Of a stretch of 60,860 bases of DNA, positions 11,772-59,985 are shown one piece after another. This stretch comes from Candidatus Saccharimonadales bacterium. GTDB taxonomy: Bacteria; Patescibacteriota; Saccharimonadia; Saccharimonadales; 2-12-FULL-41-12. The notes beneath the pieces were generated by a model. The model was not told the origin of the DNA, ran no database searches, and saw only the letters and a program-made list of their open reading frames with translations. A program made the translations under genes and the position numbers. Position 1 is the first letter of the stretch. Every line of letters begins with the position of its first letter. The stretch covers positions 1 to 60,860 of the forward strand of contig JBFIJM010000004.1 of NCBI GenBank assembly GCA_041600715.1, given 5' to 3'.

Positions 11772-11797
11772 TGTATATGTATTTTTTATACTATATA

Positions 11798-12526
11798 ATG
11801 ATTTGGATATTCATTATTACACTTATACTTGTTATTTATGTATGTCGAAAAGATATGTTTGTTAAAATACCGTCGCCGCGAAATTGGGTGACATGTTTAC
11901 CGGCCGACGCGGATGCAAGTGAGGAATCAGAATCGGAATCGGAATCGGAATCGGAATCGGGAAGCACGATGGATCTATTTTCATCAATCCCATCACCAAT
12001 TCCATTAATACCATCTTTGAACGATGTATTTGCAGATAAGGTGTCAAAATTATGTGGATGGAACATTTCATTTATCTGTGAGGTCAACAATAATAAATTA
12101 TTTCTTGGGAATTGGGTGGGTAGTGCAAATAAAAATATTCTTCGTGAACTTGGGATAAAAAAAATACTATGCCTAAATAAATACAAGAAGCCCGAATATT
12201 TACTCAACACGTATGAAGAATTAGGAATTGAACATAAACATATAGATATTAATGATCATGCTGAAGAAAATATTGCACAATACTTTGACGAGTGTTATGA
12301 TTTTATTGATAAACCTCTTCCCGCGGGCGCAGGTATATTTATTCATTGCACAGCCGGCATCTCTAGATCATCAACCATAACTATCATGTATTTGGCCAGA
12401 AAAAATAACTGGTCTATTGATGAAGCATATCAATTTGTCAGCGCGCAAAGAAATTGTATTCAGCCTAACGATGGATTTATGCAACAACTACAGGCCGATG
12501 CAAATGCTCGTGTAATAGCTGCGTAG
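11798..12526 (+). CDS. Dual-specificity protein phosphatase with N-terminal membrane anchor
   Basis: Active-site loop HCTAGISRS (HCxxGxxR, nt 12344..12370) in a DSP-like context (IFIHCTAGISRSSTITIMYL). ATG 11798 was chosen because TATACTATATA lies directly upstream; ATG 11777 is an alternative. The (ES)6 repeat is encoded at 11924..11959. Confidence 0.8.
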   Translation: MIWIFIITLILVIYVCRKDMFVKIPSPRNWVTCLPADADASEESESESESESESGSTMDLFSSIPSPIPLIPSLNDVFADKVSKLCGWNISFICEVNNNKLFLGNWVGSANKNILRELGIKKILCLNKYKKPEYLLNTYEELGIEHKHIDINDHAEENIAQYFDECYDFIDKPLPAGAGIFIHCTAGISRSSTITIMYLARKNNWSIDEAYQFVSAQRNCIQPNDGFMQQLQADANARVIAA

Positions 12527-22451: not shown

Positions 22452-23024
<573 letters not shown>

Positions 23025-24257: not shown

Positions 24258-24361
24258 TATATTATATTATAGGTTTCAAATTTAGCATGAATTCCTATAT
24301 CCGTCTAAAAAAAAATTGAATACATAATATGTATTATTAAACAACCTCTAATTAAGAGATT

Positions 24362-33439: not shown

Positions 33440-34891
33440 ATGGGTATAATAATAATTCTTCTGCTACTATTGGTATCCATCATCTTCGTTGGTCGATTAT
33501 GGGATGATGGGCGAGGCGACGGGCAAAGCGACGGGCAAAGCGACAGGCAAAGCGACGGGCAAAGCGACTGGCAAAGCGACGGGCAAAGCGACGGGCAAAG
33601 CGACGGGCGAGGTGGTGTATGCAATATTGGATCGGTCGATTCTGGTTCAGGGACTCTTGTGCATGGTGTACTAAAACTTCCGCCTCTACTTAATGTGATG
33701 AAATATGAGAACGACTCAGACTTATACGGGGTCGAATATTTAACTGATAAAGACATTGCAGCTGGTGAATTCGGTGTTCGCCATTCTAGTGATGATTTTT
33801 ACAAGCTTCGAACAGAAAATGAACAGTCTACACATGGTGATACTGGCACACAAACATTTGGGCAATCTGGAGGGTCGGGAGGGTTTGAATATGAAGAATC
33901 TCCTGCAGAAAAACCTACTTCAATTACTGGAGAGGCTGCCGACGATGCTGCAGCTGCTAACTTAGGAGTCGACGATGACTCGGGTGACTCAGGGATTAAT
34001 ACAGGGTCAAACGATAACGGAGCAAATAGTGCAGTGACAACACCACCCCGTCCATATGAAAATGAATTAGCCGGATGGACATATGGGGGTGGTGGCGGAA
34101 AGCCTTATCCTGGAGGTGGAGTACCTGGTGGGCGAGCTGGTGTAGGTATACCAGAGGCAGTATTCGGAGCCATTAACCCTGATTATTTATCAAGAGCCAA
34201 GAGTCATCTTGGATGGAGACTACAAAGTCCTGGGTTATTACCTGCTGACATACTAAATAGAGAGCGCAAATATATGGGGATTCCGCATAATGGGCAATCA
34301 AGTCGATACGGTGGGCCGCTAGGGGCGTCGGCATACGGTGGTATCGTAAGCCCATCGGCATACGGTGGTATCGTAAGCCCATCGGCATATGACGATCCTT
34401 ATGCACTACGATCAGGCCCAAGAGAACCTAGAGTTTTAAAATTATACAGGGCCAAAAAATTCGTCGGTAAGTTTAAAGATATGGAGAGGGGCAAAAAATA
34501 TTTGATCATGCGTCAACTACCGGGTAAACTTAAGTATGAATATAATTATTTGTCAATGATCGCACGAGGTCATGAATATGATATGATCTTTTTCAAGGTC
34601 ACTAAGAATTACGAAAACGATCCTGAACCGAAGACAGAATTTTTCTTCAAATCACCCTCTGACATAAACAATATGCATGAATACTTATTTCGCGAGAGAA
34701 TATTGAAGCAGACAAGTACAAGTTTTCATAAATTTATCGAGATTGGCGTGTTCTGGTTGGAAAGGGAAGAATATATGCAGTTTAAAAAACGTGTGGGTAA
34801 ATCGGTTGATAGAGACCTTGAGAGTTGTATTATAAGAAATAAAACACTAGGACATAGCCATGAAGAAAGTGTTGACATATGTACTCGATAA
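33440..34891 (+). CDS. Hypothetical membrane-anchored protein with (GQSD)n repeat
   Basis: 483-aa ORF with an N-terminal TM segment. A 12-bp repeat x8 lies at 33516..33611 and a 30-bp repeat (SAYGGIVSP) at about 34326..34392. Confidence 0.65.
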   Translation: MGIIIILLLLLVSIIFVGRLWDDGRGDGQSDGQSDRQSDGQSDWQSDGQSDGQSDGRGGVCNIGSVDSGSGTLVHGVLKLPPLLNVMKYENDSDLYGVEYLTDKDIAAGEFGVRHSSDDFYKLRTENEQSTHGDTGTQTFGQSGGSGGFEYEESPAEKPTSITGEAADDAAAANLGVDDDSGDSGINTGSNDNGANSAVTTPPRPYENELAGWTYGGGGGKPYPGGGVPGGRAGVGIPEAVFGAINPDYLSRAKSHLGWRLQSPGLLPADILNRERKYMGIPHNGQSSRYGGPLGASAYGGIVSPSAYGGIVSPSAYDDPYALRSGPREPRVLKLYRAKKFVGKFKDMERGKKYLIMRQLPGKLKYEYNYLSMIARGHEYDMIFFKVTKNYENDPEPKTEFFFKSPSDINNMHEYLFRERILKQTSTSFHKFIEIGVFWLEREEYMQFKKRVGKSVDRDLESCIIRNKTLGHSHEESVDICTR

Positions 34892-35326: not shown

Positions 35327-36373
35327 TTACACGTAGTCCTTTAAGCATACTTTAGCAAGAGCAATTGCGGATATCATGTTGGTTGTCGCGCTGATAAATC
35401 TATTTTTATGAATGAAAATGATGTCTTTTTTTGCCACTCCGCGCTTCATAAGAGTTTCTTTATCATGAATAAGTCTACGAGGGGTAAATGACCGATCATT
35501 GACTGTGCCGATTCTCCATTCCTCTTTATATGGATATATACAAAACCAAACTAGTGGAGACTTATTGGTTTTTTTTTCGTACTCTCCAAGAACTCGTCGC
35601 CAATTTCGATAGTTCTGTCGGCAAAATACAATATGACCAGATGGATGAGTTTCAAATCTTTTATCAAGATCTTCAATTATTTGTATTTTTTCTGTATTGT
35701 ACCCTACAGTATCGATCCAACATTTACGAATTTTTAATATAAGTATGTTAAGAGATAAAATCATTGCTTCCTTAAATAAATGTGATTGTTTGCTGTCATC
35801 GGATGTATTCACATAGTTCATCCCACCGATAAGCGATGTTAAATTGTTTGTTATTGGGTATTCAGGTGTGGTCGATAGATCAGTCGCAGCCCATTGTCGG
35901 ACACCATTATCTATAGCGTCAATCTCTCTAAAGAATTCTTTGTATACTTGCCAATAAATTTGTTGTGTCAACGCGGAAATGGTTTTTTTATCAACCCCTC
36001 CAAGCAGACCTTCTTCTTTAAGCACGATCAGAAGAAGCTTCTTGCCATAATATTTATATACCATCCCAGCTGATGACATCGGTATTTTACTCCAATTATT
36101 AGTATAATCGTGAGTAAATGTCAAATCGCAATCGTCTTGATGGTGGTCAAATCGACCAGCATCAGCATCATATATGCCGCCGACATCAACTACAATATGT
36201 GAACTATTAATAATTGATTGATTTCGTGTCCTTGTAATAATATTATTAGGGTGTATTTTTCCTATAATCGCGCAAGCAACAATCTCATCTGCGTGAAATT
36301 TACCATCATGCGTAGCGATTTGTATCGATGTGGATTTGATCTTGGGCATCGATGTGGACTTGATCTTGGGCAT
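35327..36373 (-). CDS. MYG1 / UPF0160-family metal-dependent hydrolase (DHH-like exonuclease family)
   Basis: IATHDGKFHADEIVACAII followed by VVDVGGIYDADAGRFDHHQ matches the MYG1 signature (THxGxFHADE...DVGG.YD....RFDHHQ). The start region is a 24-bp tandem repeat that gives two in-frame ATGs (36373 and 36349). Confidence 0.8.
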   Translation of the reverse strand: MPKIKSTSMPKIKSTSIQIATHDGKFHADEIVACAIIGKIHPNNIITRTRNQSIINSSHIVVDVGGIYDADAGRFDHHQDDCDLTFTHDYTNNWSKIPMSSAGMVYKYYGKKLLLIVLKEEGLLGGVDKKTISALTQQIYWQVYKEFFREIDAIDNGVRQWAATDLSTTPEYPITNNLTSLIGGMNYVNTSDDSKQSHLFKEAMILSLNILILKIRKCWIDTVGYNTEKIQIIEDLDKRFETHPSGHIVFCRQNYRNWRRVLGEYEKKTNKSPLVWFCIYPYKEEWRIGTVNDRSFTPRRLIHDKETLMKRGVAKKDIIFIHKNRFISATTNMISAIALAKVCLKDYV

Positions 36374-42030: not shown

Positions 42031-42087
42031 CATATAAAAAAATTGAAAAAATATAATGCTATATAGTACTAACAGTACATAAAGATA

Positions 42088-45086: not shown

Positions 45087-45150
45087 TGGATTATTTTGTT
45101 GCTCTTAGTAACAAAATTGTCTATATATACTGTTGAATTCAAATTTTAAC

Positions 45151-48100
45151 ATGTCCAAACCAACATTTATTATAGATGCAGGCGCAGGCGAGGATAAATC
45201 GACTGGATCAAACATGTCCCTGAATTTAAAAAAAGCATATATTCTTAAGCGTAAACTAGAGATGTTTGGATGGAAAGATGTTGGTGTTAGACTGGGTAAA
45301 CCACCAAAATTCGTCGACTTGCTCTATCTCGACTCGTTCGCCGATTGGAGAAAATATAAAAACACTCGATGTTATTTTAAAAACCTAGTCAAAGATTCAA
45401 TACTGTCCATAAGTGATAAATCTTTACTATATCATAACTTAGGCAAAATCGATTCGCATATAAGGGACACTTTCATGATGAGACAAATTGACGTTAACAT
45501 TACAGACTCGTCAAGCATCGAGGCATGTGAAAAATTGTTCGATGGGAGGATGTGGATTTTTAAACCAGTCGCCGGATGGAGTGGTAAAGGTATACAAGTT
45601 TTTAATAGTTACAACGGATTTAAAGAATACGCAGAATCGATTGACGTAGAAAACTGGAAATTTTTTAAATCAAAATCTTCAAGAGCTTCAATTTGGGTAC
45701 TCTCTGAATATATAGAAAATCCATTACTTATAGACGGCCATAAATTTCACTTGAGGCTTTATTTTACAGTGTATAAAAATACTAAAGGAGTAAAATCGTT
45801 CCTACACAACACTGGAATTATAATGGTGTCTAAATTTAAATATGATTTGTCATCCAGCGACATAGTAATACATAGTGTTCATAGCGACGACTCAGAAAAA
45901 CACGAGTTTCCTCGTGAGTATATTAAGTACTTCACTGAAAAAAATGCTAAAAAATTACATAACGACCTCCTAAAAATATTCAAAGCAGTCTCGAAGATAG
46001 ATTTTATGGAATGTTTTGAGGAGTCAAAAAAATGTTTTTATGATTTTGGATGTGATGTTATGATCACGGATAAATATGAGACCAAGCTTATCGAGATAAA
46101 CGACAAAGCTGGCATATCAAGTTTCATAACTATCGATAAATTTGGTAAATGTTATGTACCAAATTTGATGAAATTGATATTTGATCCTGTATTCTTTCCT
46201 AAATTGACCAACCCCGAGAAAAAAATACGGTATACCGATACGGATTATACTCTTATAAGTGTTGGAGAAGGTGGAGATGTAAATAAATCTACCACAAAAA
46301 CCTTTACAGTTTATCTATACAATACAGACACAGGATTTCAAAAACATTCTATTGATTATTTTAATAGATATGGATGGACACACATCCCCATTAGTCGAAA
46401 CATGAAGGGTCATATTAATTATCTCGACTATTCTCTAGACCATTGGCGATATTTTCAGAATGTAACTTCAGACATACGTTCGTCAGCTGACCCCTCACGA
46501 AAAAGATGGAAAGATAAATCTAGTCTATACAATGTTTTGGGGTCGACCCCACGGGGTAAACTTATCCGTGACAAATTCATGATGAAGCAATATGATGTTG
46601 ATTCGAATAATATCATGGGTGAATCGAAGCAATCCGAGAAGTTTAAAGAATTTAAGAACATATTTGATGGACGGAAATATATATTAAAACCAATAACAGG
46701 ATGGAAGGGTCTTGGTATAAAAATTACGGCATCACATAATGAAGCGTTGAAACATTTTAACCAAACTAACCAAATGGACTGGATTTATCACAAAGATAAA
46801 CAATCTGAATCAACTAAATGGGTTATTGCTGAGTACATTGATAACCCTCTTTTAATCCAAGGATGTAAATTTCATATCAGGGCATATTTTATGGTCTACC
46901 TGGATTCAGGATTTAAGACTGGAGCCACTCCGAAAATTAAAGGATATTTATTTAAGACAGGAATAATTATGCAAGCCATAAAAAAGTATAGACCGTCAAA
47001 TTACGATGACGATCAGGTACATAATATCCACGCTGGCAATTCAATAAAAAAAATATATCCAAATACTTTTATAAAAGAATTTGGACTCGCAACCACCAAT
47101 AAAATTAATACTAATATGCAGGAGTATTTTATTGAATTGTTCAATATTATAAACACAGGTTGTTACCCTGAAACTAAGAATTGCTTTACTCTTTACGGCG
47201 CTGACATCATGTTTGATGCGTCGTTTAATGTGAAAATACTCGAGATAAATTCATCTATCGGACGCAAATCTTTATCTGAAAAAAAAGAAGCATATGAATT
47301 TATGAACAACATATTTTCCATATGTATCGTACCAAACTATGGAAAACCTGCGAAATGGAAAGACCTCAAAGCTTATTGGGTAATCGGAGAAAAGTGTATC
47401 GATGATAAAAAATCGGCAGGTTCGATTGGTAAAATATCAGGGTCGGAGCGTCAAAAAACATATCTTATAGATTTAAAAGTCAAAGATTCTAAACCGTTTG
47501 AAAAGCAATTAACGAAGTATCTTGACGATAATGGGTGGGTTAACCACTTAGATTTATTTGCACCAGATGATGGAATCGACCACACAGTCGGTCTACTAAT
47601 ACATAAAAAATATGATTGGAAATCATATGACAAATATAAATCCACAATCCATGCATCTACAGAAAATGAACGGTCAATCACAAATAAATCAGCAATTTAT
47701 GATATCTCCGGAATAAAAAAATATATGATGCCCCAGTATACTATTGATTCAAGGAACAGCGATGATCTTGAAAGGGTGAAGAAATATTTTACTGGTAAAA
47801 TTCGATTTATAGTTAAACCTATGATGGGGTCCATTGGAATGGGTATATTTATAGCAAATACCCATCAAGCGTTGTTGAAAAATTTAGGTAGTAGCCATGT
47901 AGTGATTTATGATATGTATAAAAAAAGCGCTGATGTATATAGATGGATATTAGCCGAATATATTGAAAACCCTCTACTACTCAAGGGGCGTAAGTTTCAT
48001 ATACGTGTATTCTATCTTGTGACTGTGATTAATGGCGTCATTCGAGCATACATATATGGTAAAAATTACATAATGTACGCGACAAAGAAATATAATAAAA

Positions 48101-49698
48101 CATCAACTGACATACTGGTGCATAATATACATTCCGATAATTCTTCTAAATGTGTATTTCCCAAATGCTACACCGACGAATTTGGTCAAGCGAAGACTGA
48201 TAAATTAATAAAAGACTTGAAGGATATCTTTACTATTATTTTTAAGGTGTATAAATCTAAATGTTATGATAGCTCGGACCATTGTTACAACGTTTTTGGT
48301 GCTGACATAATGGTTACCGATAAATATGAAACGAAAATCATAGAGCTAAATCAAGAACCTGGTAAAAAGTATTTATCTGAGTCGACCGAATTATTCGATC
48401 ATTATACGCAAAATCTACAAGAGCTTGTGATTAATCCAGTATTTGGCCCTCCAACCACTGAGTGGAAAGATAAACATTCATATGTGCAAGTTGGTGGGCC
48501 TAAGCTCAGCAATGGTAAATCTTCATCATCGCAGATAGGAGGAGATAGAGATGCGAGTGATGCGAGTGATGCGAGTGATGACGAAACTAAAAAACAAATT
48601 TATGAAGGTGAAAAACACACCTTCGCCGTTGAGTCGGATTATTTTGCCCCATACCTAAATAAGAAAATAATAGAACTTGGTGCTGGGATGTGGGAAGAAT
48701 TTTCTTTATCGTCGTCGGCCAGACAAGGTGATCAAAAAATATCATTCCTCTACATGGATAATCTATCACTTCCTTGGAAAAAATATAAAAATACCCATGC
48801 AACTGTAAAAAATGTAGTCGATAATACTAAATATAGCATTGCCGATAAAGCAAACTTATATCAAAATCTTGCCGGGCCTGTGCGTAAGAAATTTATGCCA
48901 CTTCAGTATACGATAGATTTAGGTACAGAACCGGATGGCTTCACCAAATGGTGTGAGTGTAACTGTGAGAAATATCGTAAAATTATTAAACACGACATGT
49001 GGATGCTTAAACCAGTAACTGGGTACAAAGGTATTGGGATAAAAATGGTGGATAATTTCGGCGACTTCAAACGTCATCTTAGAGAGCATCGTCAAGAAGA
49101 TCATGCACATGGGTCTGAGCGATCCAAACGAGTTGGTGTATGGGTCCTATCTAAATACATAGATCCACCGCTGCTGTTTAAAGGGCATAAATTTCATATA
49201 CGTCTATATTATTTAGTTAGTCAAATCGAGGGCAAAGTACATGGGTATATATTTAAATCTGGCCACCTTTATATTTCAAAAAAGAAATATAAAATGTCTA
49301 GCCATTCGACAGACATCCATAATTTGCATCTTGATAATTCTAACATAGATTTATTCCCTGAAAGTTACGCCAAAGAATTTGGTGTTGATGCATGTGTTAA
49401 ATTATACACGGAAATCTATAAAATGTTTCAAGGAGTATTCGACATAACTAAAATTGGATGTTTCGACGACTCTTCAAATTGTTACTATATCTATGGAGCC
49501 GACATTATGGTTACAGAAGACGGGTGTCCCAAACTACTGGAGGTTAATACCTCTCCACATCTTGGTGTTATGAACATTAATAAAACGTTAGCCAACCGAT
49601 ATGTCACTAATATATTCTCATTAGTATTAAATCCTATATTCGGCGAACCACCTGGATTTCCTAAGAATAATGATTATATTCTCATTGGGGAGAAATAA
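45151..49698 (+). CDS. Protein with four tandem tubulin-tyrosine-ligase-like (TTL, ATP-grasp) modules
   Basis: The track ORF opens on TTG at 45133; the first ATG is 45151. Four modules start at about nt 45151, 46290, 47455 and 48610. Each carries W(I/M)xKP..G..G.GI, WV(L/I)(S/A)(E/K)YI(E/D).PLL..G.KFH(L/I)R.Y and (F/Y)G.D(V/I)M......K(L/I)(L/I)E(I/L/V)N. Confidence 0.8.
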   Translation: MSKPTFIIDAGAGEDKSTGSNMSLNLKKAYILKRKLEMFGWKDVGVRLGKPPKFVDLLYLDSFADWRKYKNTRCYFKNLVKDSILSISDKSLLYHNLGKIDSHIRDTFMMRQIDVNITDSSSIEACEKLFDGRMWIFKPVAGWSGKGIQVFNSYNGFKEYAESIDVENWKFFKSKSSRASIWVLSEYIENPLLIDGHKFHLRLYFTVYKNTKGVKSFLHNTGIIMVSKFKYDLSSSDIVIHSVHSDDSEKHEFPREYIKYFTEKNAKKLHNDLLKIFKAVSKIDFMECFEESKKCFYDFGCDVMITDKYETKLIEINDKAGISSFITIDKFGKCYVPNLMKLIFDPVFFPKLTNPEKKIRYTDTDYTLISVGEGGDVNKSTTKTFTVYLYNTDTGFQKHSIDYFNRYGWTHIPISRNMKGHINYLDYSLDHWRYFQNVTSDIRSSADPSRKRWKDKSSLYNVLGSTPRGKLIRDKFMMKQYDVDSNNIMGESKQSEKFKEFKNIFDGRKYILKPITGWKGLGIKITASHNEALKHFNQTNQMDWIYHKDKQSESTKWVIAEYIDNPLLIQGCKFHIRAYFMVYLDSGFKTGATPKIKGYLFKTGIIMQAIKKYRPSNYDDDQVHNIHAGNSIKKIYPNTFIKEFGLATTNKINTNMQEYFIELFNIINTGCYPETKNCFTLYGADIMFDASFNVKILEINSSIGRKSLSEKKEAYEFMNNIFSICIVPNYGKPAKWKDLKAYWVIGEKCIDDKKSAGSIGKISGSERQKTYLIDLKVKDSKPFEKQLTKYLDDNGWVNHLDLFAPDDGIDHTVGLLIHKKYDWKSYDKYKSTIHASTENERSITNKSAIYDISGIKKYMMPQYTIDSRNSDDLERVKKYFTGKIRFIVKPMMGSIGMGIFIANTHQALLKNLGSSHVVIYDMYKKSADVYRWILAEYIENPLLLKGRKFHIRVFYLVTVINGVIRAYIYGKNYIMYATKKYNKTSTDILVHNIHSDNSSKCVFPKCYTDEFGQAKTDKLIKDLKDIFTIIFKVYKSKCYDSSDHCYNVFGADIMVTDKYETKIIELNQEPGKKYLSESTELFDHYTQNLQELVINPVFGPPTTEWKDKHSYVQVGGPKLSNGKSSSSQIGGDRDASDASDASDDETKKQIYEGEKHTFAVESDYFAPYLNKKIIELGAGMWEEFSLSSSARQGDQKISFLYMDNLSLPWKKYKNTHATVKNVVDNTKYSIADKANLYQNLAGPVRKKFMPLQYTIDLGTEPDGFTKWCECNCEKYRKIIKHDMWMLKPVTGYKGIGIKMVDNFGDFKRHLREHRQEDHAHGSERSKRVGVWVLSKYIDPPLLFKGHKFHIRLYYLVSQIEGKVHGYIFKSGHLYISKKKYKMSSHSTDIHNLHLDNSNIDLFPESYAKEFGVDACVKLYTEIYKMFQGVFDITKIGCFDDSSNCYYIYGADIMVTEDGCPKLLEVNTSPHLGVMNINKTLANRYVTNIFSLVLNPIFGEPPGFPKNNDYILIGEK

Positions 49699-52758: not shown

Positions 52759-52799
52759 CGTGCAGTTTATAGATATATTGAGTAAGATGTTTTCAATTT

Positions 52800-55187
52800 T
52801 TATAAGAGAGATTCGAGGAATTCATCATCACTCATAGTTTTCCGTTCATATTTTTGACATATTAAGTACCTAACCATATTCTCCAAGTTAGAGAATGAAC
52901 AATGTATACACCACTCTTCTCCTGTTAATAAATTTAATACCCGAAGGTTAGTTATGTTAGCGAGCCACCCGTATACTGCGCATTGTAGAAAATGGGTATC
53001 TGTGAGGGTATGTACACATTTTAATTCCCATATCACTTGATCGGTCGACGTGGTCGACGTGGTCGACGTGGTCGACGTGGTCGACGTGGTCGACGTGGTC
53101 GACGTGGTCGACGTGGTCGACGTGGTCGACGTGGTCGACGTGGTCGACGTGGTCATACTCCTGCCCATCGCCAATACATCTACGCGTCCAATAATAGTCC
53201 TCCCAAGGATATGTTTACTATACTCAACTTCGAAGCGAGCATTTTTGGACAACCTATTTGATAAACGAGCGACAGCTGCCATCAATTTCTTTTTACCAAT
53301 CCACGTATAATTATGTATCTGGTTTAATTTATGTACGTAGTTTGACTGTGTAGCGCAATATTCATTAGCAAGTTTAAGAAGAGTTTGTGGGTTGAATGGT
53401 ATAGGCTTTTCACCGATAGTCATTTTCCCGGTCATCTTATATTCAAGGAATGCCGGTATAGCAACGCCGGTGATTTCCCCAACCTGTTCATATAGATCTT
53501 GTTGTTTTGTCTTGATCGGTATATCAATAATAACACCTGGGTCAACGGTTTGTTCAGGTACAATATAGCTTAATGCATGGTTGATAACTTTTTGAGGGAG
53601 ATGTTTAAGTAGGTTAGTTACGCCGATCTTATTATTTTCGCCACCATCGCTTATCTTTGGAGCGATTCTATTCATAAGCCTAAAAGCACACGTCTTCGGT
53701 ACTTGCTCGACATTTATAAATGGCAAATAATCATGCTCGTAGTGGTGAAATAACGTTAATAATTCGGTTGCTCTAGTAATTGCTACGTATAATGTATTTG
53801 GGCAGACCATTGGATTTTCTCCCCTGGCGTAGAATTTAAAGTAACTTTCATCGAAATTAAATACAATAATACATTTACGCTCAAGCCCTTTCGCTTGATG
53901 AAAGGTAATGAATGATAACTTACCCTTAAGCACGTCATCATCGAGTCTTTCCTCGTCAGACCCCGGCACAAATATGGGTATACCAAAACCTGATAAAGTG
54001 TTCGCCAGTCGTATCACCGGTGATTTTGATGATTTAACACTAGGACTAAGTATAAAGATGTCTTCAGGTTTGTATCTGATAAGATACAGTTGAAGAATCT
54101 CGGCCACCCTGCTTGAAAAAGCATTACACACGTAGTATTGAACATCTGGCCCGGATTTCACCGCATTCATGCGGTTACCTTTGAGGCATGCCAGGTTAAT
54201 AAAATTTGCCATCTGATGTGTTATACGGTATGAAGTCGATAATTTCTTAGATGTCCAGGTAGCTGGTTGTGAGCCTGCCGAACTAACCGGCAAGCTCCAT
54301 ATTCTATCGACGAGAGTAATAAATCGATGGTCCGCCCCGTTAAATTGATATATTGACTGATTCTTATCTCCAAGTATTATAAGTTGACATATACCATTTT
54401 GTCGTATTATCATCGACATGAATTTATAATATAATAAAGACATGTCTTGGGCTTCATCGATGATTATAATGTCATAATGCCGGCTTGGTAAATCTTCCTC
54501 ACCTAAATCTATGGGGTCAAGATCATCGCTCGACTCTTCGTCTTCGTCTTCGTCTTCGTCTTCGTCTTCGTCTTCGTCTTCGTCTTCGTCTTCGTCTTCG
54601 TCTTCCGACCCGATGGCAAATTTTTTACCTGCTTCGTTATCATCTATGTCACTACCATCTCCATACATGGAGACTGTATTTGTTGATTTCGTCTTTATTG
54701 AGTTGCGAACTACTCTGATTAATCCAGCATCGGTCGAGCACGACGTGTTATAATATTTATACCCGTACGAATGGTAACTATGTACTTCGATATTTTTTAA
54801 ACCTATTTGTTGCACTTTTACTCGGGTCTCCATTTTTAGTTTAGCATTATAGGTTATCAGAAGGATTTTTTTATCCAAGTTAGCCCTAGCGAGATGTAGA
54901 ATTGTGGTTGTCTTTCCACTGCCGGCAATCGCATCAACAACAATATTACCCTTTACCTCTATAATTTCCTTCTGCTCTAGTGAGGGTTTCGGTAAAATAC
55001 TCACCCACATGGATGATCGGGATATTTTTTTATCAGTCGGAGGATGCTCACCAAAAATGTACTTGTACTCAGGGAGCGAGGTTAATATTTTACCCTCGCA
55101 CATATTAGTAAACACTAACTCATCAGAGTCTTCGTCAGATTCATCATCTGAATCGATCATGGAACGTACGAGTTTTAGTCTACTCAT
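52800..55187 (-). CDS. UvrD/Rep-like SF1 helicase fused to a C-terminal PD-(D/E)xK (RecB/Cas4-like) nuclease
   Basis: Walker A AIAGSGKTTT (nt ~54911..54927), motif II IIIDEAQD, FITFHQAKGLE, LYVAITRATE. The C-terminus has GRVDVL ... ELKCV ... QCAVYGW (D, ExK and QxxxY nuclease motifs). The (ED)n repeat is at 54535..54600 and the (TST)12 repeat at 53044..53151. Confidence 0.8.
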   Translation of the reverse strand: MSRLKLVRSMIDSDDESDEDSDELVFTNMCEGKILTSLPEYKYIFGEHPPTDKKISRSSMWVSILPKPSLEQKEIIEVKGNIVVDAIAGSGKTTTILHLARANLDKKILLITYNAKLKMETRVKVQQIGLKNIEVHSYHSYGYKYYNTSCSTDAGLIRVVRNSIKTKSTNTVSMYGDGSDIDDNEAGKKFAIGSEDEDEDEDEDEDEDEDEDEDEDEESSDDLDPIDLGEEDLPSRHYDIIIIDEAQDMSLLYYKFMSMIIRQNGICQLIILGDKNQSIYQFNGADHRFITLVDRIWSLPVSSAGSQPATWTSKKLSTSYRITHQMANFINLACLKGNRMNAVKSGPDVQYYVCNAFSSRVAEILQLYLIRYKPEDIFILSPSVKSSKSPVIRLANTLSGFGIPIFVPGSDEERLDDDVLKGKLSFITFHQAKGLERKCIIVFNFDESYFKFYARGENPMVCPNTLYVAITRATELLTLFHHYEHDYLPFINVEQVPKTCAFRLMNRIAPKISDGGENNKIGVTNLLKHLPQKVINHALSYIVPEQTVDPGVIIDIPIKTKQQDLYEQVGEITGVAIPAFLEYKMTGKMTIGEKPIPFNPQTLLKLANEYCATQSNYVHKLNQIHNYTWIGKKKLMAAVARLSNRLSKNARFEVEYSKHILGRTIIGRVDVLAMGRSMTTSTTSTTSTTSTTSTTSTTSTTSTTSTTSTTSTTSTDQVIWELKCVHTLTDTHFLQCAVYGWLANITNLRVLNLLTGEEWCIHCSFSNLENMVRYLICQKYERKTMSDDEFLESLL
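53044..53151. repeat. 9-bp in-frame tandem repeat (GTCGACGTG) x12
   Basis: Counted unit by unit. It encodes (TST)n on the minus strand, inside the nuclease domain of 52800..55187. Confidence 0.95.
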
Positions 55188-55229: not shown

Positions 55230-55931
55230 TTACCATATAAAGTATAATACTCCAACCGCTATAATAGCTAGAACTGTTGATGTGTATACGAAGTCAATGC
55301 CGACAACTGACGTCGTAGGTAGAGGCGTTGCGTTTTTTTCCGGCAACTCTAGTATTTTTATTACTTTGTCTATGAATTCACTTGTGTAATTATTTATAAC
55401 TGTTGTCACCGGGGTGATTTTGTCCAGGGATTGCTCAGATTTATGCATTACAACATTATATTTTTGATCGCCTAGGTCACTTGGGTCGCCATTTGAGTTG
55501 ATAAATGCTGGGGGAATAGGTTTAATTTTAATCACAAGCCCACCCATTTGGTAAATAGCATCAGCTTCATCTTGATATCGAATCCCCTCGATTACATAAT
55601 TTCGCCCTTTATTTTCAAGATTGCTTAATTCTCTAATCATACATTTGACCCATATGTCAGAGAATTTACCCATTACTTGGGGTAGAAATTCTCGACAAAC
55701 TTCTGTCCCAAATTTTTGAAGGAACTCGCGGGCGGATACTTTCCAATATTTATTTATCTCTAGTTTTTGTTCCTGAGTACCCCATAATTGATGATGTTCA
55801 AAGCCAATGACCGCCGCTATCTCCTTGAGTGGTTTGGCCATCTCATATTTCGTGAACCCATAATCATTCGTTAATATAGATGTTATGTATGTTTTGCCAG
55901 ATCCTATATTTCCACATATGCCAACAATCAT
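55230..55931 (-). CDS. P-loop dNMP-kinase-like protein with C-terminal TM anchor
   Basis: MIVGICGNIGSGKTY (Walker A), followed by FAKPLKE-like MAKPLKEIAAVIG and REFLQKFGTEVCR, as in T4-type deoxynucleotide monophosphate kinases. Hydrophobic C-terminus: VLAIIAVGVLYFIW. Confidence 0.65.
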   Translation of the reverse strand: MIVGICGNIGSGKTYITSILTNDYGFTKYEMAKPLKEIAAVIGFEHHQLWGTQEQKLEINKYWKVSAREFLQKFGTEVCREFLPQVMGKFSDIWVKCMIRELSNLENKGRNYVIEGIRYQDEADAIYQMGGLVIKIKPIPPAFINSNGDPSDLGDQKYNVVMHKSEQSLDKITPVTTVINNYTSEFIDKVIKILELPEKNATPLPTTSVVGIDFVYTSTVLAIIAVGVLYFIW

Positions 55932-55989
55932 ATTGTACTAAACAGAAAATTGAAATATACATATAACATATAACATATAACAATTTTAG

Positions 55990-57417
55990 ATGGCAAAAGA
56001 ACAAGCTCTATCGGGCATATCGGGCGACTGGAAGAAGGTGTTGAACGGCGGAAAAGCCGCTAAACTACTAGTAAAAGTGTTTGAAGAACTCAAGGACGTT
56101 GATGAAAAAACCTTGTGTCCAAGCATAAAGGACATCTTTAATGCGTTTAGATTCCCATTTGAGCAAGTATCGGTGATTATCATAGGACAAGATCCATATC
56201 ATACCCCTGGCCACGCTCATGGTTTAAGTTTTAGCTCTTTGGCAGACACGGTACCGCCATCCCTTCACAAAATTTATAAATGTCTACAGACAGATGGATT
56301 AATTGGGTCAGATGCAGGTCCCGCATCGGGGGACCTGACCCCTTTGCGAGATCAAGGGGTACTTTTACTCAATAGTGCATTGACTACTGTTCACGGTAAA
56401 CCTGGTGCTCATATTAAGATTTGGAGTGCCTACATCGACTCCGTAATACATCGAATAAACGCTCTTTCTCTAAAGAAAGATAATAAACTTATATACTTGC
56501 TTTGGGGCGCCGATGCGCAGAAAAAGGCTGATGCAAAAAAGAAAAACCTAATGGACAAACACATAGTACTTACTGCAGCGCATCCAATGGCTTACCTAAA
56601 AGATTCCGACGAATTATCGTTCGTCCAGTGCGGACACTTCCTGCAGGCGAATAAATTGCTGAAGGGCATGGATAAACATGTTATTGACTGGGATTGGTCG
56701 TCTTCGTCGTCTTCGTCGCCTGAGTCGCCTGCGTCGCCTGAGTCGCCTGCGTCGCCTGCGTCGCCTGCGTCGCCTGCGTCGCCTGCGTCGCCTGCCGTGA
56801 CTACAGAAAAATCCAGGGCACAGATTCGCAGATATTTTACAGGAGGTGAACGAACATGTGTATGCTTTACCGATGGGTCATGCAGTCCAAATAAGAGATG
56901 TCCGGAAGCGCAAGGTGGATACGCAACTGTATTTACTCAAGGATTGTTAAACGATACTCGCATCTACGGATCTCTAAATACTGAAAAGAACTTTGCGTCA
57001 AATATGCGTGCAGAAGGATATGCTATTCTTCGAGGTCTTCAATATGCAAGTGATGAAAAGCATATTGAAGACTGGGATGTCTTTGTTGTCGTCACCGATA
57101 ATCTTAAATGGATGGAAATGATAACTCAGGACATGGCATCTTGGTCACCAGAAAAATTCGCCACTCAGTCAAATCCGGATATTACTTTACCACTATGGCA
57201 GCTATGGAAGAAGATGGAGTTTGAAAATGAAAAGAAGATGATTATTCTCCACATGAAATCCCACGATAAAGATGGGTGGAGCAGGTACCCTGATGGTAGC
57301 TACGAGAAATATTGTTACGAGCAAAATAAGTACGTAGATATTTTAGCTAAATATGCTCGTGAAGAAATGGACCGAGGTGATGAGTCTATTGATGCAGCTG
57401 AATATGAATCAGAATAA
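55990..57417 (+). CDS. Fusion of a family-1 uracil-DNA glycosylase with RNase H1
   Basis: UDG part: VIIIGQDPYHTPGHAHGLSFS (water-activating GQDPYH loop) and TAAHPMAYL (HPSPLS-equivalent). RNase H part: CFTDGSC...GGYATVF, NMRAEGYAILRGLQYA, VVVTDNLKWMEMI, HMKSH...NKYVDILAKYA (D-E-D-D pattern). The (SPA/SPE)9 linker is encoded at 56716..56796. Confidence 0.8.
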   Translation: MAKEQALSGISGDWKKVLNGGKAAKLLVKVFEELKDVDEKTLCPSIKDIFNAFRFPFEQVSVIIIGQDPYHTPGHAHGLSFSSLADTVPPSLHKIYKCLQTDGLIGSDAGPASGDLTPLRDQGVLLLNSALTTVHGKPGAHIKIWSAYIDSVIHRINALSLKKDNKLIYLLWGADAQKKADAKKKNLMDKHIVLTAAHPMAYLKDSDELSFVQCGHFLQANKLLKGMDKHVIDWDWSSSSSSSPESPASPESPASPASPASPASPASPAVTTEKSRAQIRRYFTGGERTCVCFTDGSCSPNKRCPEAQGGYATVFTQGLLNDTRIYGSLNTEKNFASNMRAEGYAILRGLQYASDEKHIEDWDVFVVVTDNLKWMEMITQDMASWSPEKFATQSNPDITLPLWQLWKKMEFENEKKMIILHMKSHDKDGWSRYPDGSYEKYCYEQNKYVDILAKYAREEMDRGDESIDAAEYESE

Positions 57418-57489: not shown

Positions 57490-59985
57490 ATGGAAAAAGC
57501 ATTGCGCGATTTGATAAAAACTCGTTGGATCCAACTAAATGTTTACAACGGCATGTTATTTAATGACTTCTTTAGCCCAGTGTCTCTGAAAAAACCTAAA
57601 GCATATTATATTAAGGCCCGGCAGATTTTAGAGAGAAATCTCTCGGATATCCAGAATCAAGCTAAGAAAACACCAGTTCATTTACATAAAGGTTTACTAG
57701 ACAGGGTGAACCGATTATTTGACTCATATAAGAGTATACTCAATGATAACTTTGCTAAACATGTTATAGATACCGAACGAGTAGAAATTAAGACACCTCG
57801 TACACAACCTTTACCAGATATTGTCTATAAAGGAGTCGACGTAAAGCAGTTTAGTAAAAGTGAGGAGGCCCATATGAAAGCAATCCGAGAGGCTAAATTG
57901 GCGGACGCAATCAATCGGCATAAAGCTGTAATTGATGCCAAGAATCAGGCTAACGCGTTGCTACAACAGATGGAACAAAACCTAAGCAACTTAAATAAGA
58001 TGCTACAAAATATCCGTGAATTGGAAGATAAAATTAAAGAAGAAGAGGATAAATGGGTACGAGCTAAGGCTGAAGCTAATTCAGTTATTTTGGAAGCTCA
58101 GCGGAAAGCTGAGGAAGCTCAGCGGGAAGCTGAGGAAGCTCAGCGGAAAGCTGAGGAAGCTAGGTTGGAAGCTCAGCGGGAAACTAGGTTGGAAGCTCAG
58201 CGGAAAGCTGAGGAAGCTAAGCTGAAATCTGAGAAAGCTGAGCGGGAAGCTCAGCGGGAAGCTCAGCGGAAAGCTGAGGAAGCTCAGCGGAAAGCTGAGG
58301 AAGCTCAGCGGAAAACTCAGCGGGAAGCTGAGGAAGCTCAGCGGGAAGCTAAGCAGAAAGCTGAGGAAGCTGAGCGGGAAGCTAAGCAGAAAGCTGAGGA
58401 AGCTAAGCAGAAAGCTGAGCGGGAAGCTAAGCAGAAAGCTGAGCGGGAAGCTAGGTTGGAAGCTGAGCGGGAAGCTAAGCAGAAAGCTGAGCGGGACGCT
58501 AGGTTGAAAGTTGAGCGGGAAGCTAGGTTGGATGCTGAGGTAGCTAAGTGGAAAGCTGAGAGAGCTAAGTTGAAAGCTGAGGAAGCTCAGCGGGAAGCTG
58601 AGCGGGAAGCTGAGGAAGCTAAGTTGAAAACTCAGCGGGAAGCTGAGGAAGCTAAGTTGAAAGTTGAGCGGGAAGCTAGGTTGGATGCTGAGGTAGCTAA
58701 GTGGAAAGCTGAGGAATCTGAGCGGGAAGCTAAGCAGAAAGCTGAGCGGGACGCTAGGGTGAAAGATCAGATAATTAAGTTGGCAGCTGAGTTGAAAGAT
58801 GAGAGAGCTAAGCAGGAAGCTGAGCGGAAAGCTGAGGAAGCTAAGTTGAAAACTAAGCATGAAGCTGAGCGGAAAGCTGAGCGGGAAGATAAACCGGAGG
58901 AGATAAAAACAGAAGCTCAAAGTAGTAAAACGAAGGCGGAAGCGACCTGGATTGAACAAACTAGTCATGGTCCTGCGAAATCAAAATCCACTTCTAATGT
59001 CGAAAGTGTTCAAGAATACCTTTTAAATCAACAAAAAAAATCAGAAATGGCATTCAAACAATGCTTAACTGAAGAATTCAAATGGGTGGATAGAATAGGC
59101 AATCCTTATTTCGGTGTGGAACATACTGAAAAATTCGTGACAGATATGATTCATAGAGAACATTGCTTTAAGCTATTGAATATTATGAATTGGTACTCTG
59201 AAAAATTAAAAAAAATTAAGAGTTCTAAAAAATCGAGTATTGATTTGAGTGATCTTAAACAAGAAGAGACGATGATGATAGGTGCTGAGCAAAAAAAGTA
59301 TTTAGTCTCTAAAGAAGAAAAAATCAAGTATCTTATGAATAAATATCCGGAAATTTTCCGGAAACGTGAAGAGCATAAGAAACGTTTGGAAAAAAAAAAG
59401 AAAAAAGATTTATTAGTAAAGGAACATAAAGGGTATACGGAACTTTTGGAAGAAAAAAAGAAAGAAAAAGAATTATTGGTACCAAAATACTCCTCATTTA
59501 TCTCGCCCATATCCATAAAACAGATAAATGAGATAACTAAATTAGATAAGGAAATTAGTAAGCTGGAAAGTAAGGTTAGATTACTCAGGGAACGAATAGA
59601 ATTAATTAATATTACAGGAGGTCGTAATGAGTCGTCACCGAGCACATCAATAGAAAGAAAACATTTATTAAAACAATCTGATGTAGACGATGCCTCGCCA
59701 ACTTCATTGTCTACACCTCTTTTAATCGAACCCACAACAGAAGATTCATCTACCAACATGTTGTATGTAAACAACCCAAACATATTTACATCGGGAGGAA
59801 GAACAAAATATACGGGGGGGCAAGAAATTAATGATGTCGATCCGACTAGCGCAATCATATTAGGAGTGGGATGTGGGATGGCATTTATTATGCAGAACAT
59901 TTTAGTATTTATAATAATAGCTCTTATTATTATTATATATTATACTTGTACACCTTTACTGGTTCAAAATGAAGTCTGCGTCTGA
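57490..59985 (+). CDS. Tail-anchored long coiled-coil protein with ~270-aa E/A/K/R/Q 8-residue repeat region
   Basis: 831-aa ORF. The repeats (AQRKAEEA / AEREAKQK) are encoded at about 58081..58900. C-terminal TM segment: ILGVGCGMAFIMQNILVFIIIALIIIIYY. Confidence 0.7.
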   Translation: MEKALRDLIKTRWIQLNVYNGMLFNDFFSPVSLKKPKAYYIKARQILERNLSDIQNQAKKTPVHLHKGLLDRVNRLFDSYKSILNDNFAKHVIDTERVEIKTPRTQPLPDIVYKGVDVKQFSKSEEAHMKAIREAKLADAINRHKAVIDAKNQANALLQQMEQNLSNLNKMLQNIRELEDKIKEEEDKWVRAKAEANSVILEAQRKAEEAQREAEEAQRKAEEARLEAQRETRLEAQRKAEEAKLKSEKAEREAQREAQRKAEEAQRKAEEAQRKTQREAEEAQREAKQKAEEAEREAKQKAEEAKQKAEREAKQKAEREARLEAEREAKQKAERDARLKVEREARLDAEVAKWKAERAKLKAEEAQREAEREAEEAKLKTQREAEEAKLKVEREARLDAEVAKWKAEESEREAKQKAERDARVKDQIIKLAAELKDERAKQEAERKAEEAKLKTKHEAERKAEREDKPEEIKTEAQSSKTKAEATWIEQTSHGPAKSKSTSNVESVQEYLLNQQKKSEMAFKQCLTEEFKWVDRIGNPYFGVEHTEKFVTDMIHREHCFKLLNIMNWYSEKLKKIKSSKKSSIDLSDLKQEETMMIGAEQKKYLVSKEEKIKYLMNKYPEIFRKREEHKKRLEKKKKKDLLVKEHKGYTELLEEKKKEKELLVPKYSSFISPISIKQINEITKLDKEISKLESKVRLLRERIELINITGGRNESSPSTSIERKHLLKQSDVDDASPTSLSTPLLIEPTTEDSSTNMLYVNNPNIFTSGGRTKYTGGQEINDVDPTSAIILGVGCGMAFIMQNILVFIIIALIIIIYYTCTPLLVQNEVCV

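What the first reader, a model, noticed from the sequence alone, without database searches (positions are those of the whole stretch)
55990..57417. Uracil-DNA glycosylase and RNase H1 in one polypeptide, joined by a microsatellite-encoded (SPA)n linker
Residues 1 to ~235 carry family-1 UDG hallmarks (GQDPYH loop; an HP-containing intercalation loop, AAHPMAYL, diverged from HPSPLS). Residues ~280-475 carry the RNase H1 D-E-D-D pattern (TDGS, RAEG, TDN, VDILA). The two halves are joined by SSSSSS plus (SP[A/E])9, encoded by a 9-bp repeat at 56716..56796. Both enzymes remove non-canonical residues from DNA: uracil in one case, ribonucleotides or RNA primers in the other. I do not know of such a fusion. 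It would couple two nucleotide-sanitising steps, and the slippage-prone linker hints at a fairly recent or length-variable junction.
Basis: partly seen in the sequence, partly recalled or inferred. Interest (0 to 1): 0.7.

Follow-up and report, generated by a model that had tools for sequence, protein, structure and literature searches.

The report
Giant-virus uracil glycosylase–RNase H fusion enzyme
A giant-virus gene joins an intact uracil-DNA glycosylase to an intact RNase H through a floppy repeat-encoded spacer; the fusion is real, old and widespread in uncultured giant viruses, yet I found no paper that describes it.

Summary
ORF 55990..57417 (+) encodes 475 aa: a family-1 uracil-DNA glycosylase (residues 1-236), a disordered Ser/Pro/Ala linker encoded by a 9-bp repeat in 11 copies, and a type-1 RNase H (residues ~289-460). 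Both halves pass Pfam's curated cut-offs. Both give confident models that superpose on solved UNG and RNase HI/H1 structures, and both keep every catalytic residue.

The window is giant-virus DNA, probably Imitervirales-like. The fusion is not unique or recent. All 150 best 50%-identity cluster representatives in an exhaustive search are co-linear two-domain proteins, and DEDD is intact in at least 147 of them. Seven IMG/VR contigs carry the fusion, three of them named giant-virus MAGs. A divergent dNMP-kinase neighbour is conserved. Linkers range from 2 to 271 aa with unrelated repeats, so the spacer is hypervariable and the junction is ancient.

The "diverged" intercalation loop (Leu to Tyr) matches the catalytically active mimivirus UNG. 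Type-1 RNase H cuts RNA tracts (primers, R-loops), not single ribonucleotides.

Most likely function: an early-expressed, two-headed enzyme for cleaning DNA at the replication fork. Nine literature searches found no description of it. I rate it a new variant of known kinds, of moderate interest.

The parts
55946..55953 (+). AAAATTGA octamer, 36 nt upstream of the ATG; Mimiviridae-type early-promoter motif
   Evidence: 20 hits in the window against 9.6 expected, and 0 of 100 shuffles reach 20. 12 of 40 genes have it correctly oriented within 100 nt upstream of the start, against about 0.7 expected. The meaning of the motif is taken from PMC5294985.
55955..55982 (.). 7-bp tandem repeat ATATAAC, 4.1 copies, in the 58-bp divergent intergenic region
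   Evidence: TRF; function unknown.
55990..57417 (+). Whole UDG-linker-RNase H gene, 475 codons plus stop
55990..56697 (+). Family-1 uracil-DNA glycosylase (UNG) domain, residues 1-236
   Evidence: NCBIfam ung equivalogs 1e-49. PDB sequence match to 3tr7 at 4e-35. AF2 pLDDT mostly above 90. Foldseek target-normalised TM-score 0.79-0.84 to solved UNGs.
56185..56202 (+). Water-activating loop GQDPYH (catalytic D68, Y70)
   Evidence: D and Y invariant in 44 of 44 fused homologs. D in 144 of 150 and Y or F in 146 of 150 representatives.
56581..56598 (+). Minor-groove intercalation loop HPMAYL (H198; Tyr202 in place of the wedge Leu), followed by a 3-residue insertion
   Evidence: H198 is invariant. 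The wedge position is L, M, Q, Y or V in the family. The active mimivirus UNG also has Tyr here. The loop has lower pLDDT, about 59.
56698..56853 (+). Inter-domain linker, residues 237-288; predicted disordered at 240-276
   Evidence: pLDDT below 50 for residues 240-272 and 274-276. The linker is 2-271 aa in relatives.
56697..56795 (+). 9-bp microsatellite GTCGCCTGC, 11 copies, encoding S6(SP[A/E])9
   Evidence: TRF score 156. It is one of about 25 in-frame repeat arrays in the window.
56854..57369 (+). Type-1 RNase H catalytic domain, residues 289-460 (D295, E342, D370, H425, N446, D450)
   Evidence: Pfam RNase_H. Profile against PDB: bacterial RNase HI 5e-16, human RNase H1 1.7e-14. AF2 pLDDT 96.4. 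Foldseek target-normalised TM-score 0.81 to E. coli RNase HI and 0.78-0.79 to human RNase H1. Catalytic positions are conserved in 147-150 of 150 representatives.
55230..55931 (-). Divergently transcribed dNMP kinase (DNMK) gene; conserved neighbour of the fusion gene
   Evidence: Pfam PF21448. The same divergent pairing occurs in L001/L002/L003, L004 and L005.

Best explanation
The gene encodes a bifunctional DNA-maintenance enzyme of a giant virus (Nucleocytoviricota, probably Imitervirales-like). The N-terminal head is a catalytically competent family-1 uracil-DNA glycosylase. The C-terminal head is a catalytically competent type-1 RNase H of the cellular RNase HI/H1 kind, with a handle region but no hybrid-binding domain. 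A disordered spacer of freely varying length ties the two together.

Shown: the architecture, both folds, the conservation of every catalytic residue across a large family, the disordered linker, the conserved locus and a correctly placed early-promoter-type motif.

Inferred: the protein is made early and works in the viral factory at or behind replication forks. The RNase H head removes Okazaki RNA primers and R-loop RNA. The UNG head excises misincorporated dUMP and deaminated cytosine from nascent or exposed single-stranded and double-stranded DNA. The abasic sites then pass to virus-encoded AP endonuclease, polymerase and ligase.

The selective advantage of the fusion would be co-delivery in a 1:1 ratio, with one head holding the other on the same stretch of DNA. 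E. coli achieves this by docking both Ung and RNase HI on the SSB tail. Eukaryotic RNase H1 achieves it with its N-terminal hybrid-binding domain on a flexible linker.
For: Domains pass curated thresholds. The UDG half matches solved UNGs by sequence (4e-35) and by fold (target-normalised TM-score 0.79-0.84). The RNase H half matches RNase HI/H1 by profile (5e-16 to 1.7e-14, stronger than its retroviral RNase H matches at 1e-5 to 1e-9) and by fold (0.78-0.81; model pLDDT 96).

Catalytic residues: UNG D, Y, F, N and H, and RNase H D, E, D and N, are conserved in 44 of 44 fused homologs; RNase H H425 is conserved in 43 of 44 and D450 in 41 of 44, the other three having Glu. In the 150 cluster representatives, 129 have the exact full set, 12 more differ only by Tyr to Phe, and RNase H D-E-D-D is conserved in 147-150.

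The fusion is conserved and co-linear in all 150 best representatives of 1.84 billion clusters (the 150th scores E = 6e-105). It is present in 7 IMG/VR contigs, including 3 GVMAGs. It lies in giant-virus neighbourhoods with a capping enzyme, SNF2 helicases, AP endonucleases, ligase and PNK.

The linker is disordered and varies from 2 to 271 aa. The early-promoter octamer sits 36 nt upstream. The Tyr wedge has a precedent in the active mimivirus UNG. E. coli Ung and RNase HI both belong to the SSB interactome, and RNase HI colocalises with the replisome (the 3uf7 Ung-SSB-Ct co-crystal is listed).
Against: No biochemical or expression data exist for any member. Activity, timing and localisation are all inferred. 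The intercalation loop carries Met-Ala-Tyr in place of Ser-Pro-Leu plus a 3-residue insertion, and it is modelled with low confidence (pLDDT about 59), so efficiency on double-stranded DNA is uncertain. AAAATTGA is not exclusive to Mimiviridae; an iridovirus promoter contains it too. The lineage could not be named, because the best capping-enzyme homologs are only 39% identical and unnamed. A standalone RNase H of the same subfamily exists (P0122), so the fusion is not obligatory for function. Reads across the window's own repeat could not be inspected.
Confidence: 0.7

Rival explanations
1. Assembly or annotation artefact: two adjacent genes (udg, rnh) were joined because a repeat collapsed or a stop or frameshift was lost inside the microsatellite.
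For: The junction lies in a slippage-prone 9-bp array. Reads for this window cannot be checked.
Against: The same N-to-C fusion occurs in at least 150 independent sequence clusters and many independent assemblies, with unrelated linkers as short as 2-5 aa. The 9-bp period keeps the frame at any copy number. There is no in-frame Met between the linker and catalytic D295. The one apparent 'RNase-H-only' hit, P0031, is a fused gene cut by a contig end.
Confidence: 0.03
2. The UDG half serves mainly as a DNA- or replisome-docking module, as vaccinia D4 does when it forms the polymerase processivity factor with A20, or as the hybrid-binding domain does in eukaryotic RNase H1. On this reading the physiologically important activity is RNase H, delivered processively to the fork.
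For: RNase H catalytic residues are even more strictly conserved than those of UDG: 147-150 of 150, against 144 of 150 for the UDG Asp, with three representatives showing K, S or N at that position. The UDG sits exactly where the HBD sits in eukaryotic RNase H1, on a flexible linker. Viral UDGs repeatedly associate with replisomes (D4-A20, PMC4889955; HCMV UL114-UL44, title listed).
Against: The UNG catalytic and uracil-pocket residues are conserved in at least 94% of representatives, which argues that uracil excision itself is selected. D4 is also catalytically active, so docking and catalysis are not exclusive. No A20-like partner was looked for.
Confidence: 0.15
3. Dedicated R-loop surveillance: RNase H degrades the RNA of transcription-replication R-loops while the tethered UNG, which prefers single-stranded DNA, removes uracils formed by cytosine deamination on the displaced strand. 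The two heads would act on one structure rather than independently.
For: Type-1 RNase H is the main R-loop-removing enzyme. UNGs act on ssDNA, and mimivirus UNG was reported to prefer it. The tether would keep both heads on the same lesion-prone structure. Viral factories transcribe and replicate at the same time (general knowledge).
Against: This is purely inferential and nothing in the sequence distinguishes it from fork-coupled action. Very short linkers (2-10 aa in 25 of 150 representatives) and very long ones both persist, so no fixed reach between the heads is required.
Confidence: 0.12

Closest known systems
Family-1 uracil-DNA glycosylases (UNG: E. coli Ung, human UNG, herpesvirus UL2/UL114, mimivirus L249 UNG)
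   Same: Same fold and the same five motifs: GQDPYH, a Pro-rich loop (TVPPS), LLLN, a Gly-Ser-type loop (GA, as in mimivirus) and an HP-loop. Catalytic Asp/His, the Tyr/Phe/Asn uracil pocket, and the Tyr wedge seen in mimivirus UNG are all present.
   Different: It carries a C-terminal RNase H domain. It has no N-terminal PCNA/RPA-binding extension as in human UNG2 and no N-domain or motif-I as in mimivirus UNG. By sequence it is much closer to cellular UNGs (E 1e-30 to 1e-35) than to mimivirus UNG (3e-12). The HP-loop is HPMAYL plus a 3-residue insertion.
Type-1 RNase H (E. coli RNase HI; catalytic domain of human RNase H1)
   Same: The D-E-D-D active site plus the His124 and Asn130 equivalents, the handle or 'basic protrusion' region with its conserved Trp, and the same fold.
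   Different: Sequence identity is only about 18-20%, and single-sequence phmmer finds no PDB match. There is an insertion of about 15 residues between the catalytic His and the final Asn-x3-Asp, containing the subfamily motif KSHxKDGW...YCYxQN. There is no hybrid-binding domain; a UNG domain occupies that N-terminal position.
Eukaryotic RNase H1 architecture (HBD - flexible variable linker - catalytic domain)
   Same: An N-terminal nucleic-acid-binding module is tethered to the RNase H catalytic domain by a disordered linker of variable length.
   Different: Here the N-terminal module is an enzyme (UNG), not the about 50-aa HBD. No HBD-family hit was returned by Pfam.
E. coli SSB-tail hub, which recruits both Ung and RNase HI to the fork
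   Same: It brings the same two activities together at replication forks (3uf7).
   Different: Recruitment there is non-covalent, through a third protein. Here the link is covalent.
Vaccinia D4 uracil-DNA glycosylase (processivity factor with A20)
   Same: A viral UDG is physically coupled to replication machinery.
   Different: D4 is a divergent UDG that binds A20, and no nuclease is fused to it. A partner for the present protein is unknown.

Membership tests
Family-1 UDG (UNG) | Water-activating loop GQDPY[HP] with the catalytic Asp | tested here: met
   66-GQDPYH-71. D68 is conserved in 44 of 44 homologs and 144 of 150 representatives.
Family-1 UDG (UNG) | Uracil pocket: Tyr (GQDPY), Phe (GLSFS), Asn (LLLN) | tested here: met
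   Y70, F81 and N128 align with E. coli Y66, F77 and N123.
Family-1 UDG (UNG) | HPSPLS loop: catalytic His plus an intercalating Leu | tested here: inconclusive
   H198 and P199 are invariant, but the loop reads HPMAYL with Tyr202 at the Leu position and a 3-residue insertion. The Tyr wedge is found in the catalytically active mimivirus UNG (PMC5538708), so the change is compatible with activity but is not canonical.
Family-1 UDG (UNG) | UNG alpha/beta fold | tested here: met
   AF2 model with Foldseek target-normalised TM-score 0.79-0.84 to more than 40 UNG structures.
Family-1 UDG (UNG) | Uracil excision activity; inhibition by Ugi | not testable with these tools
   Needs an enzyme assay.
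Type-1 RNase H (RNase HI/H1) | D-E-D-D carboxylate tetrad | tested here: met
   D295, E342, D370 and D450 align with E. coli D10, E48, D70 and D134. They are conserved in 147-150 of 150 representatives.
Type-1 RNase H (RNase HI/H1) | Flexible-loop His (E. coli H124) and Asn130 | tested here: met
   H425 and N446 are each conserved in 149 of 150 representatives.
Type-1 RNase H (RNase HI/H1) | RNase H fold with a handle (basic protrusion) | tested here: met
   pLDDT 96 model. Target-normalised TM-score 0.81 to E. coli RNase HI and 0.78-0.79 to human RNase H1. The handle region aligns, including the conserved Trp and N-x-D.
Type-1 RNase H (RNase HI/H1) | Cleavage of RNA in RNA/DNA hybrids | not testable with these tools
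   Needs an enzyme assay.
Eukaryotic RNase H1 (full architecture) | N-terminal hybrid-binding domain (HBD) | tested here: not met
   Pfam reports only UDG, RNase_H and a sub-threshold RVT_3 hit. Residues 1-236 are UNG.
Retroelement/retroviral RNase H | Best match to RT-associated RNase H, with an RT domain nearby | tested here: not met
   RVT_3 scores 13.7 bits, below the cut-off of 21.6. Retroviral RNase H hits are weaker by several orders of magnitude or more (E 1e-5 to 1e-9, against 1e-14 to 1e-16 for cellular type-1 enzymes). There is no RT in the ORF.
Conserved giant-virus UDG-RNase H fusion family (undescribed, defined here) | Co-linear UNG then RNase H in one ORF, with the subfamily RNase H motifs (NPD[IL]T, KSHxKDxW, C[YF]xxN) | tested here: met
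   The query is 28-46% identical over its full length to the family members in alignment A1 (41% over 99% of its length to the best database hit). The motifs are present. The DNMK synteny is shared.

The most novel reading that the evidence does not exclude
The covalent UNG-RNase H pairing defines a virus-specific repair and replication module in which the two heads act on one substrate. One version is RNA-primer or R-loop removal coupled to uracil excision on the exposed or newly made strand. Another is that UNG replaces the hybrid-binding domain as the targeting and processivity module of RNase H. On this reading the fusion is a 'Rosetta-stone' indication of a functional UNG-RNase H1 partnership that also holds in cells, where E. 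coli SSB recruits both enzymes.
Probability: 0.2. Interest if true: 0.7.

Novelty: new variant of a known kind. Interest (0 to 1): 0.48.

Why it matters
Both enzymes are textbook activities, but a conserved covalent fusion of them is not described in the literature I could search. Such a fusion is strong comparative evidence that uracil removal and RNA/DNA-hybrid removal are functionally coupled at replication forks or R-loops in giant-virus factories. The family offers many natural variants, with linkers from 2 to 271 aa, for testing how tethering two DNA-processing heads affects repair. It also shows that automated annotation hides the RNase H half, because every fused hit that JGI names is called only 'uracil-DNA glycosylase'. 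For this particular genome the gene is an ordinary member of that family. The microsatellite linker reflects a genome-wide habit of in-frame repeats rather than a recent fusion event.

Tried and rejected
1. Single-sequence phmmer of the RNase H half against PDB found nothing. A family profile was needed.

2. Naming the virus lineage failed. The capping-enzyme search returned only unnamed metagenomic proteins at 39% identity or less. The cluster look-up gave no organism names. The NCBI records are large unnamed assemblies.

3. The IMG/VR scan with the full-length alignment was swamped by ordinary phage, herpesvirus and giant-virus UDGs. A tighter alignment, A3, worked.

4. P0031 looked like a split 'RNase H only' gene but is a fused gene cut off by the contig end, so I rejected it as evidence for the split arrangement. 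P0122 is a real standalone RNase H. It is 55-59% identical to the RNase H halves of some fused proteins, more than those halves are to the query, so it looks like a secondary split or a loss of the UDG half.

5. I considered and rejected a retroelement origin for the RNase H half. I rejected misassembly (see the rival explanations). I also rejected a prokaryotic origin or distribution, because there were no hits in 185,579 species-representative genomes.

6. The first large MAFFT run timed out and was repeated with a faster mode. The few aberrant residues at UDG D68 in that fast alignment (K, S, N in three sequences) may be alignment errors.

7. Nine literature searches found no description of the fusion. 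The library lacks most subscription journals, so absence is not proof.
Full report
OBSERVATION. The window contains an uninterrupted ORF at 55990..57417 (+) encoding 475 aa. Tandem Repeats Finder reports GTCGCCTGC in 11.0 copies (93% matches, score 156) at 56697..56795. Because the period is 9, slippage changes linker length but never the frame. There is no in-frame Met between the linker and the first RNase H catalytic Asp (D295), so the C-terminal half cannot be a separate translation product from an internal ATG.

DOMAINS. Pfam places UDG (PF03167) on residues 59-219 and RNase_H (PF00075) on residues 290-454, both above their curated cut-offs. NCBIfam ung equivalogs cover residues 10-236 at E about 1e-49. 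The N-terminal half matches solved family-1 UNGs by sequence: Coxiella 3tr7 at 4e-35, and E. coli and human at about 1e-30 to 1e-31. It is much further from mimivirus UNG (5x55, 3e-12).

An AlphaFold2 model built on a 37-sequence family alignment has mean pLDDT 87, with two confident domains and a disordered segment at residues 240-276. Foldseek places the N-terminal domain on UNG structures with a target-normalised TM-score of 0.79-0.84. The C-terminal half is too diverged for single-sequence phmmer against PDB. A 29-sequence profile hits bacterial RNase HI (3h08 at 5e-16, E. coli at about 1e-15) and the human RNase H1 catalytic domain (1.7e-14), much better than retroviral RNase H domains (1e-5 to 1e-9). 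A separate model of this half has pLDDT 96.4. It superposes on E. coli RNase HI (0.81) and human RNase H1 (0.78-0.79).

CATALYTIC RESIDUES. In an alignment with E. coli Ung and RNase HI, the query has UNG D68, Y70, F81, N128 and H198, and RNase H D295, E342, D370, H425, N446 and D450. These correspond to Ung D64, Y66, F77, N123 and H187, and to RNase HI D10, E48, D70, H124, N130 and D134. All are conserved in 41-44 of 44 fused homologs.

The intercalating Leu of HPSPLS is Tyr202 here (HPMAYL, followed by a 3-residue insertion), and the family uses L, M, Q, Y or V at this position. The crystal-structure paper on the catalytically active mimivirus UNG reports the same Leu-to-Tyr replacement (HPSPYS, Y322), GQDPYP, and a 'GA' Gly-Ser loop (PMC5538708). 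Its unusual residues and low model confidence (pLDDT about 59) still leave its efficiency on double-stranded DNA open.

WHAT GENOME THIS IS. The window encodes:
- a three-domain mRNA capping enzyme;
- a methyltransferase/PARP_regulatory (VP39-like) protein;
- several SNF2/DEAD helicases and a UvrD-like helicase;
- a dNMP kinase;
- a multi-TTL protein, MYG1, a dual-specificity phosphatase and WD40 proteins.
Genes are densely packed on both strands at about 38% GC.

The octamer AAAATTGA occurs 20 times against 9.6 expected. In 12 of 40 genes it lies correctly oriented within 100 nt upstream of the start codon, against about 0.7 expected. For the fusion gene it lies 36 nt upstream. This is the motif described upstream of about 45-50% of mimivirus genes and associated with early expression (PMC5294985). 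The same paper notes a similar element in an iridovirus promoter, so the motif is suggestive of lineage but not diagnostic.

The lineage is deep. The best capping-enzyme homologs are only 39% identical and unnamed. I conclude that this is a giant virus (Nucleocytoviricota), probably Imitervirales-like, whose exact family is undetermined.

THE FUSION IS A CONSERVED FAMILY. The word-indexed search returned more than 40 proteins carrying both Pfam domains, the best only 41% identical to the query. The exhaustive HMMER search of 1.84 billion cluster representatives returned 150 best hits that are all co-linear two-domain matches, and the 150th still scores E = 6e-105. The family therefore spans at least 150 clusters at 50% identity.

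Among those 150 representatives:
- 129 have the exact full catalytic set;
- 12 more differ only by Tyr to Phe in GQDPY;
- 3 are N-terminally truncated fragments;
- the RNase H D-E-D-D, His and Asn positions are conserved in 147-150.

Seven IMG/VR contigs carry the fused ORF, including three GVMAG giant-virus bins and contigs of 85-261 kb. No bacterial or archaeal species-representative genome carries this RNase H subfamily. The gene neighbourhoods of homologs are giant-virus-like: capping enzyme, SNF2 helicases, NUDIX, PNK3P, AP endonucleases of both families, DNA ligase, Rpb5 and topoisomerase IB. The divergent dNMP-kinase neighbour of the window is conserved in L001-L005.

One apparent RNase-H-only hit, P0031, is a fused gene cut off by the contig end. 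One true standalone gene exists: P0122, 195 aa, whose upstream neighbour is a zinc-finger protein. P0122 is 55-59% identical to the RNase H halves of several fused proteins, more than those halves are to the query. That pattern fits a secondary split or loss of the UDG half better than an ancestral unfused state.

THE LINKER. Across the family the inter-domain segment is 2-271 aa with a median of 31. Many lineages have their own unrelated repeats, for example acidic DDDKENNSDEDSDED units in P0002, KKPKVDIDAKKTESD in P0003, DKPDKPKKS in P0006 and VKYKDDEQKN in L096. The junction is therefore ancient, and the spacer is a tolerant, repeatedly expanding segment.

In the window the SPA array is one of about 25 in-frame tandem-repeat arrays. 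All have periods divisible by 3 and many are GC-rich relative to the genome. Examples are the (TST)n and (DE)n arrays in the neighbouring UvrD-like helicase. The microsatellite reflects a genome-wide habit and is not a mark of a recent fusion.

MECHANISM. The following points are shown:
- there are two intact catalytic heads;
- the tether is disordered;
- the two-domain architecture is under purifying selection;
- an early-type promoter motif is correctly placed;
- the conserved neighbour is a nucleotide-metabolism gene.

The rest is inferred from established knowledge. Type-1 RNase H cleaves RNA tracts of about 3-4 or more ribonucleotides, that is Okazaki primers and R-loops, and not single rNMPs, which are RNase H2/HII substrates (PMC11253446). 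UNG removes misincorporated dUMP and deaminated cytosine from single-stranded and double-stranded DNA. In E. coli both Ung and RNase HI dock on the SSB C-terminal tail, and RNase HI colocalises with the replisome (the Ung-SSB-Ct co-crystal 3uf7 is listed). Viral UDGs repeatedly associate with replisome processivity factors, as with vaccinia D4-A20.

The most economical reading is a two-headed enzyme for cleaning DNA at the fork. Covalent linkage guarantees co-delivery and lets one DNA-bound head retain the other on the same stretch of DNA. This is analogous to the hybrid-binding domain, flexible linker and catalytic domain layout of eukaryotic RNase H1, whose HBD is absent here and whose position is taken by UNG. 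The rival readings are a mainly docking role for UNG, R-loop-specific cooperation, and an assembly artefact. They are listed with their tests, and the artefact is effectively excluded by the family evidence.

NOVELTY. Nine full-text searches found no paper describing a UDG-RNase H fusion. In mimivirus the two functions are separate genes (PMC8097291). Every fused hit that JGI names is called only 'uracil-DNA glycosylase'. The library omits most subscription journals, and I could not query InterPro architectures, so prior mention cannot be excluded.

I rate the finding a new variant of known kinds: known enzymes in an undescribed but widespread architecture. This window's gene is an ordinary member of that family. 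Interest is moderate, because the fusion is a clean and testable indication of coupling between uracil excision and RNA/DNA-hybrid removal, but neither activity is new.

Noticed in passing
window-wide; e.g. 53043-53154, 54535-54605, 21044-21306, 22549-22814, 24631-24762, 33516-33608, 13795-13858: About 25 tandem-repeat arrays lie in 60 kb. All periods are multiples of 3 (6, 9, 12, 18, 24 and so on), they sit inside ORFs, and many are GC-rich against a genome of about 38% GC. Examples are (TST)n and (DE)n inside the UvrD-like helicase. This looks like a genome-wide tendency to grow in-frame low-complexity inserts.
   Followed up: partly
window-wide; e.g. 3502-3509(-), 8499-8506(-), 24312-24319(+), 42039-42046(+), 52793-52800(-), 55946-55953(+): AAAATTGA is enriched (20 hits against 9.6 expected). 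It sits 24-69 nt upstream of 11 of the 40 gene starts in the correct orientation (and overlaps the listed start of a twelfth gene). This is the Mimiviridae-type early-promoter signature.
   Followed up: yes
55230-55931 (-): The dNMP kinase (PF21448) ends in a strongly hydrophobic C-terminal stretch (VVGIDFVYTSTVLAIIAVGVLYFIW), which may be a membrane tail-anchor. The gene is a conserved divergent neighbour of the fusion gene in relatives.
   Followed up: partly
57490-59985 (+): An 831-aa ORF has no Pfam hit. It contains a long (EAQRKAE)-type charged repeat (21/33-bp DNA periodicity at 58092-58881) and a hydrophobic C-terminal segment. A long shadow ORF lies on the opposite strand at 58081-58968.
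   Followed up: no
45133-49698 (+): A 1521-aa protein carries several tubulin-tyrosine-ligase/ATP-grasp domains (5 TTL stretches, E = 3e-102), which is unusual for a virus.
   Followed up: no
35327-36373 (-); 11717-12526 (+); 23-991 and 1255-2100 (+); 2770-3477 (-): Other cellular-type genes are present: a MYG1 exonuclease homolog (7e-66), a dual-specificity phosphatase, two WD40 proteins with 120-bp DNA periodicity, and a pentapeptide-repeat protein.
   Followed up: no
database hits P0029, P0076, P0082, P0085, P0091 (UDG+EndoIII); P0097, P0106, P0110, P0116, P0118 (UDG+PIF1-like helicase); P0053, P0064 (UDG+photolyase); P0113 (UDG+beta-CASP): UNG domains related to this one also occur fused to other DNA-repair modules in metagenomic proteins. 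UNG therefore seems to be a frequent fusion partner in these or similar genomes. I did not determine their genomic origin.
   Followed up: no
L098 4128-5645 (IMGVR_UViG_3300045996_000834, 261 kb): This fused homolog has GEDPY in place of GQDPY and an HPVAYK loop like the window's HPMAYL. A capping-enzyme homolog of the window (P0127, 36% identical) also comes from a contig of exactly 261,301 bp, possibly the same one, so this may be among the nearest relatives of the window's virus.
   Followed up: partly
L090 2396-2983: A standalone 195-aa RNase H of the same subfamily has a C2H2-like zinc-finger gene upstream instead of a UDG. It appears to be a secondary split of the fusion or a loss of the UDG half.
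   Followed up: yes
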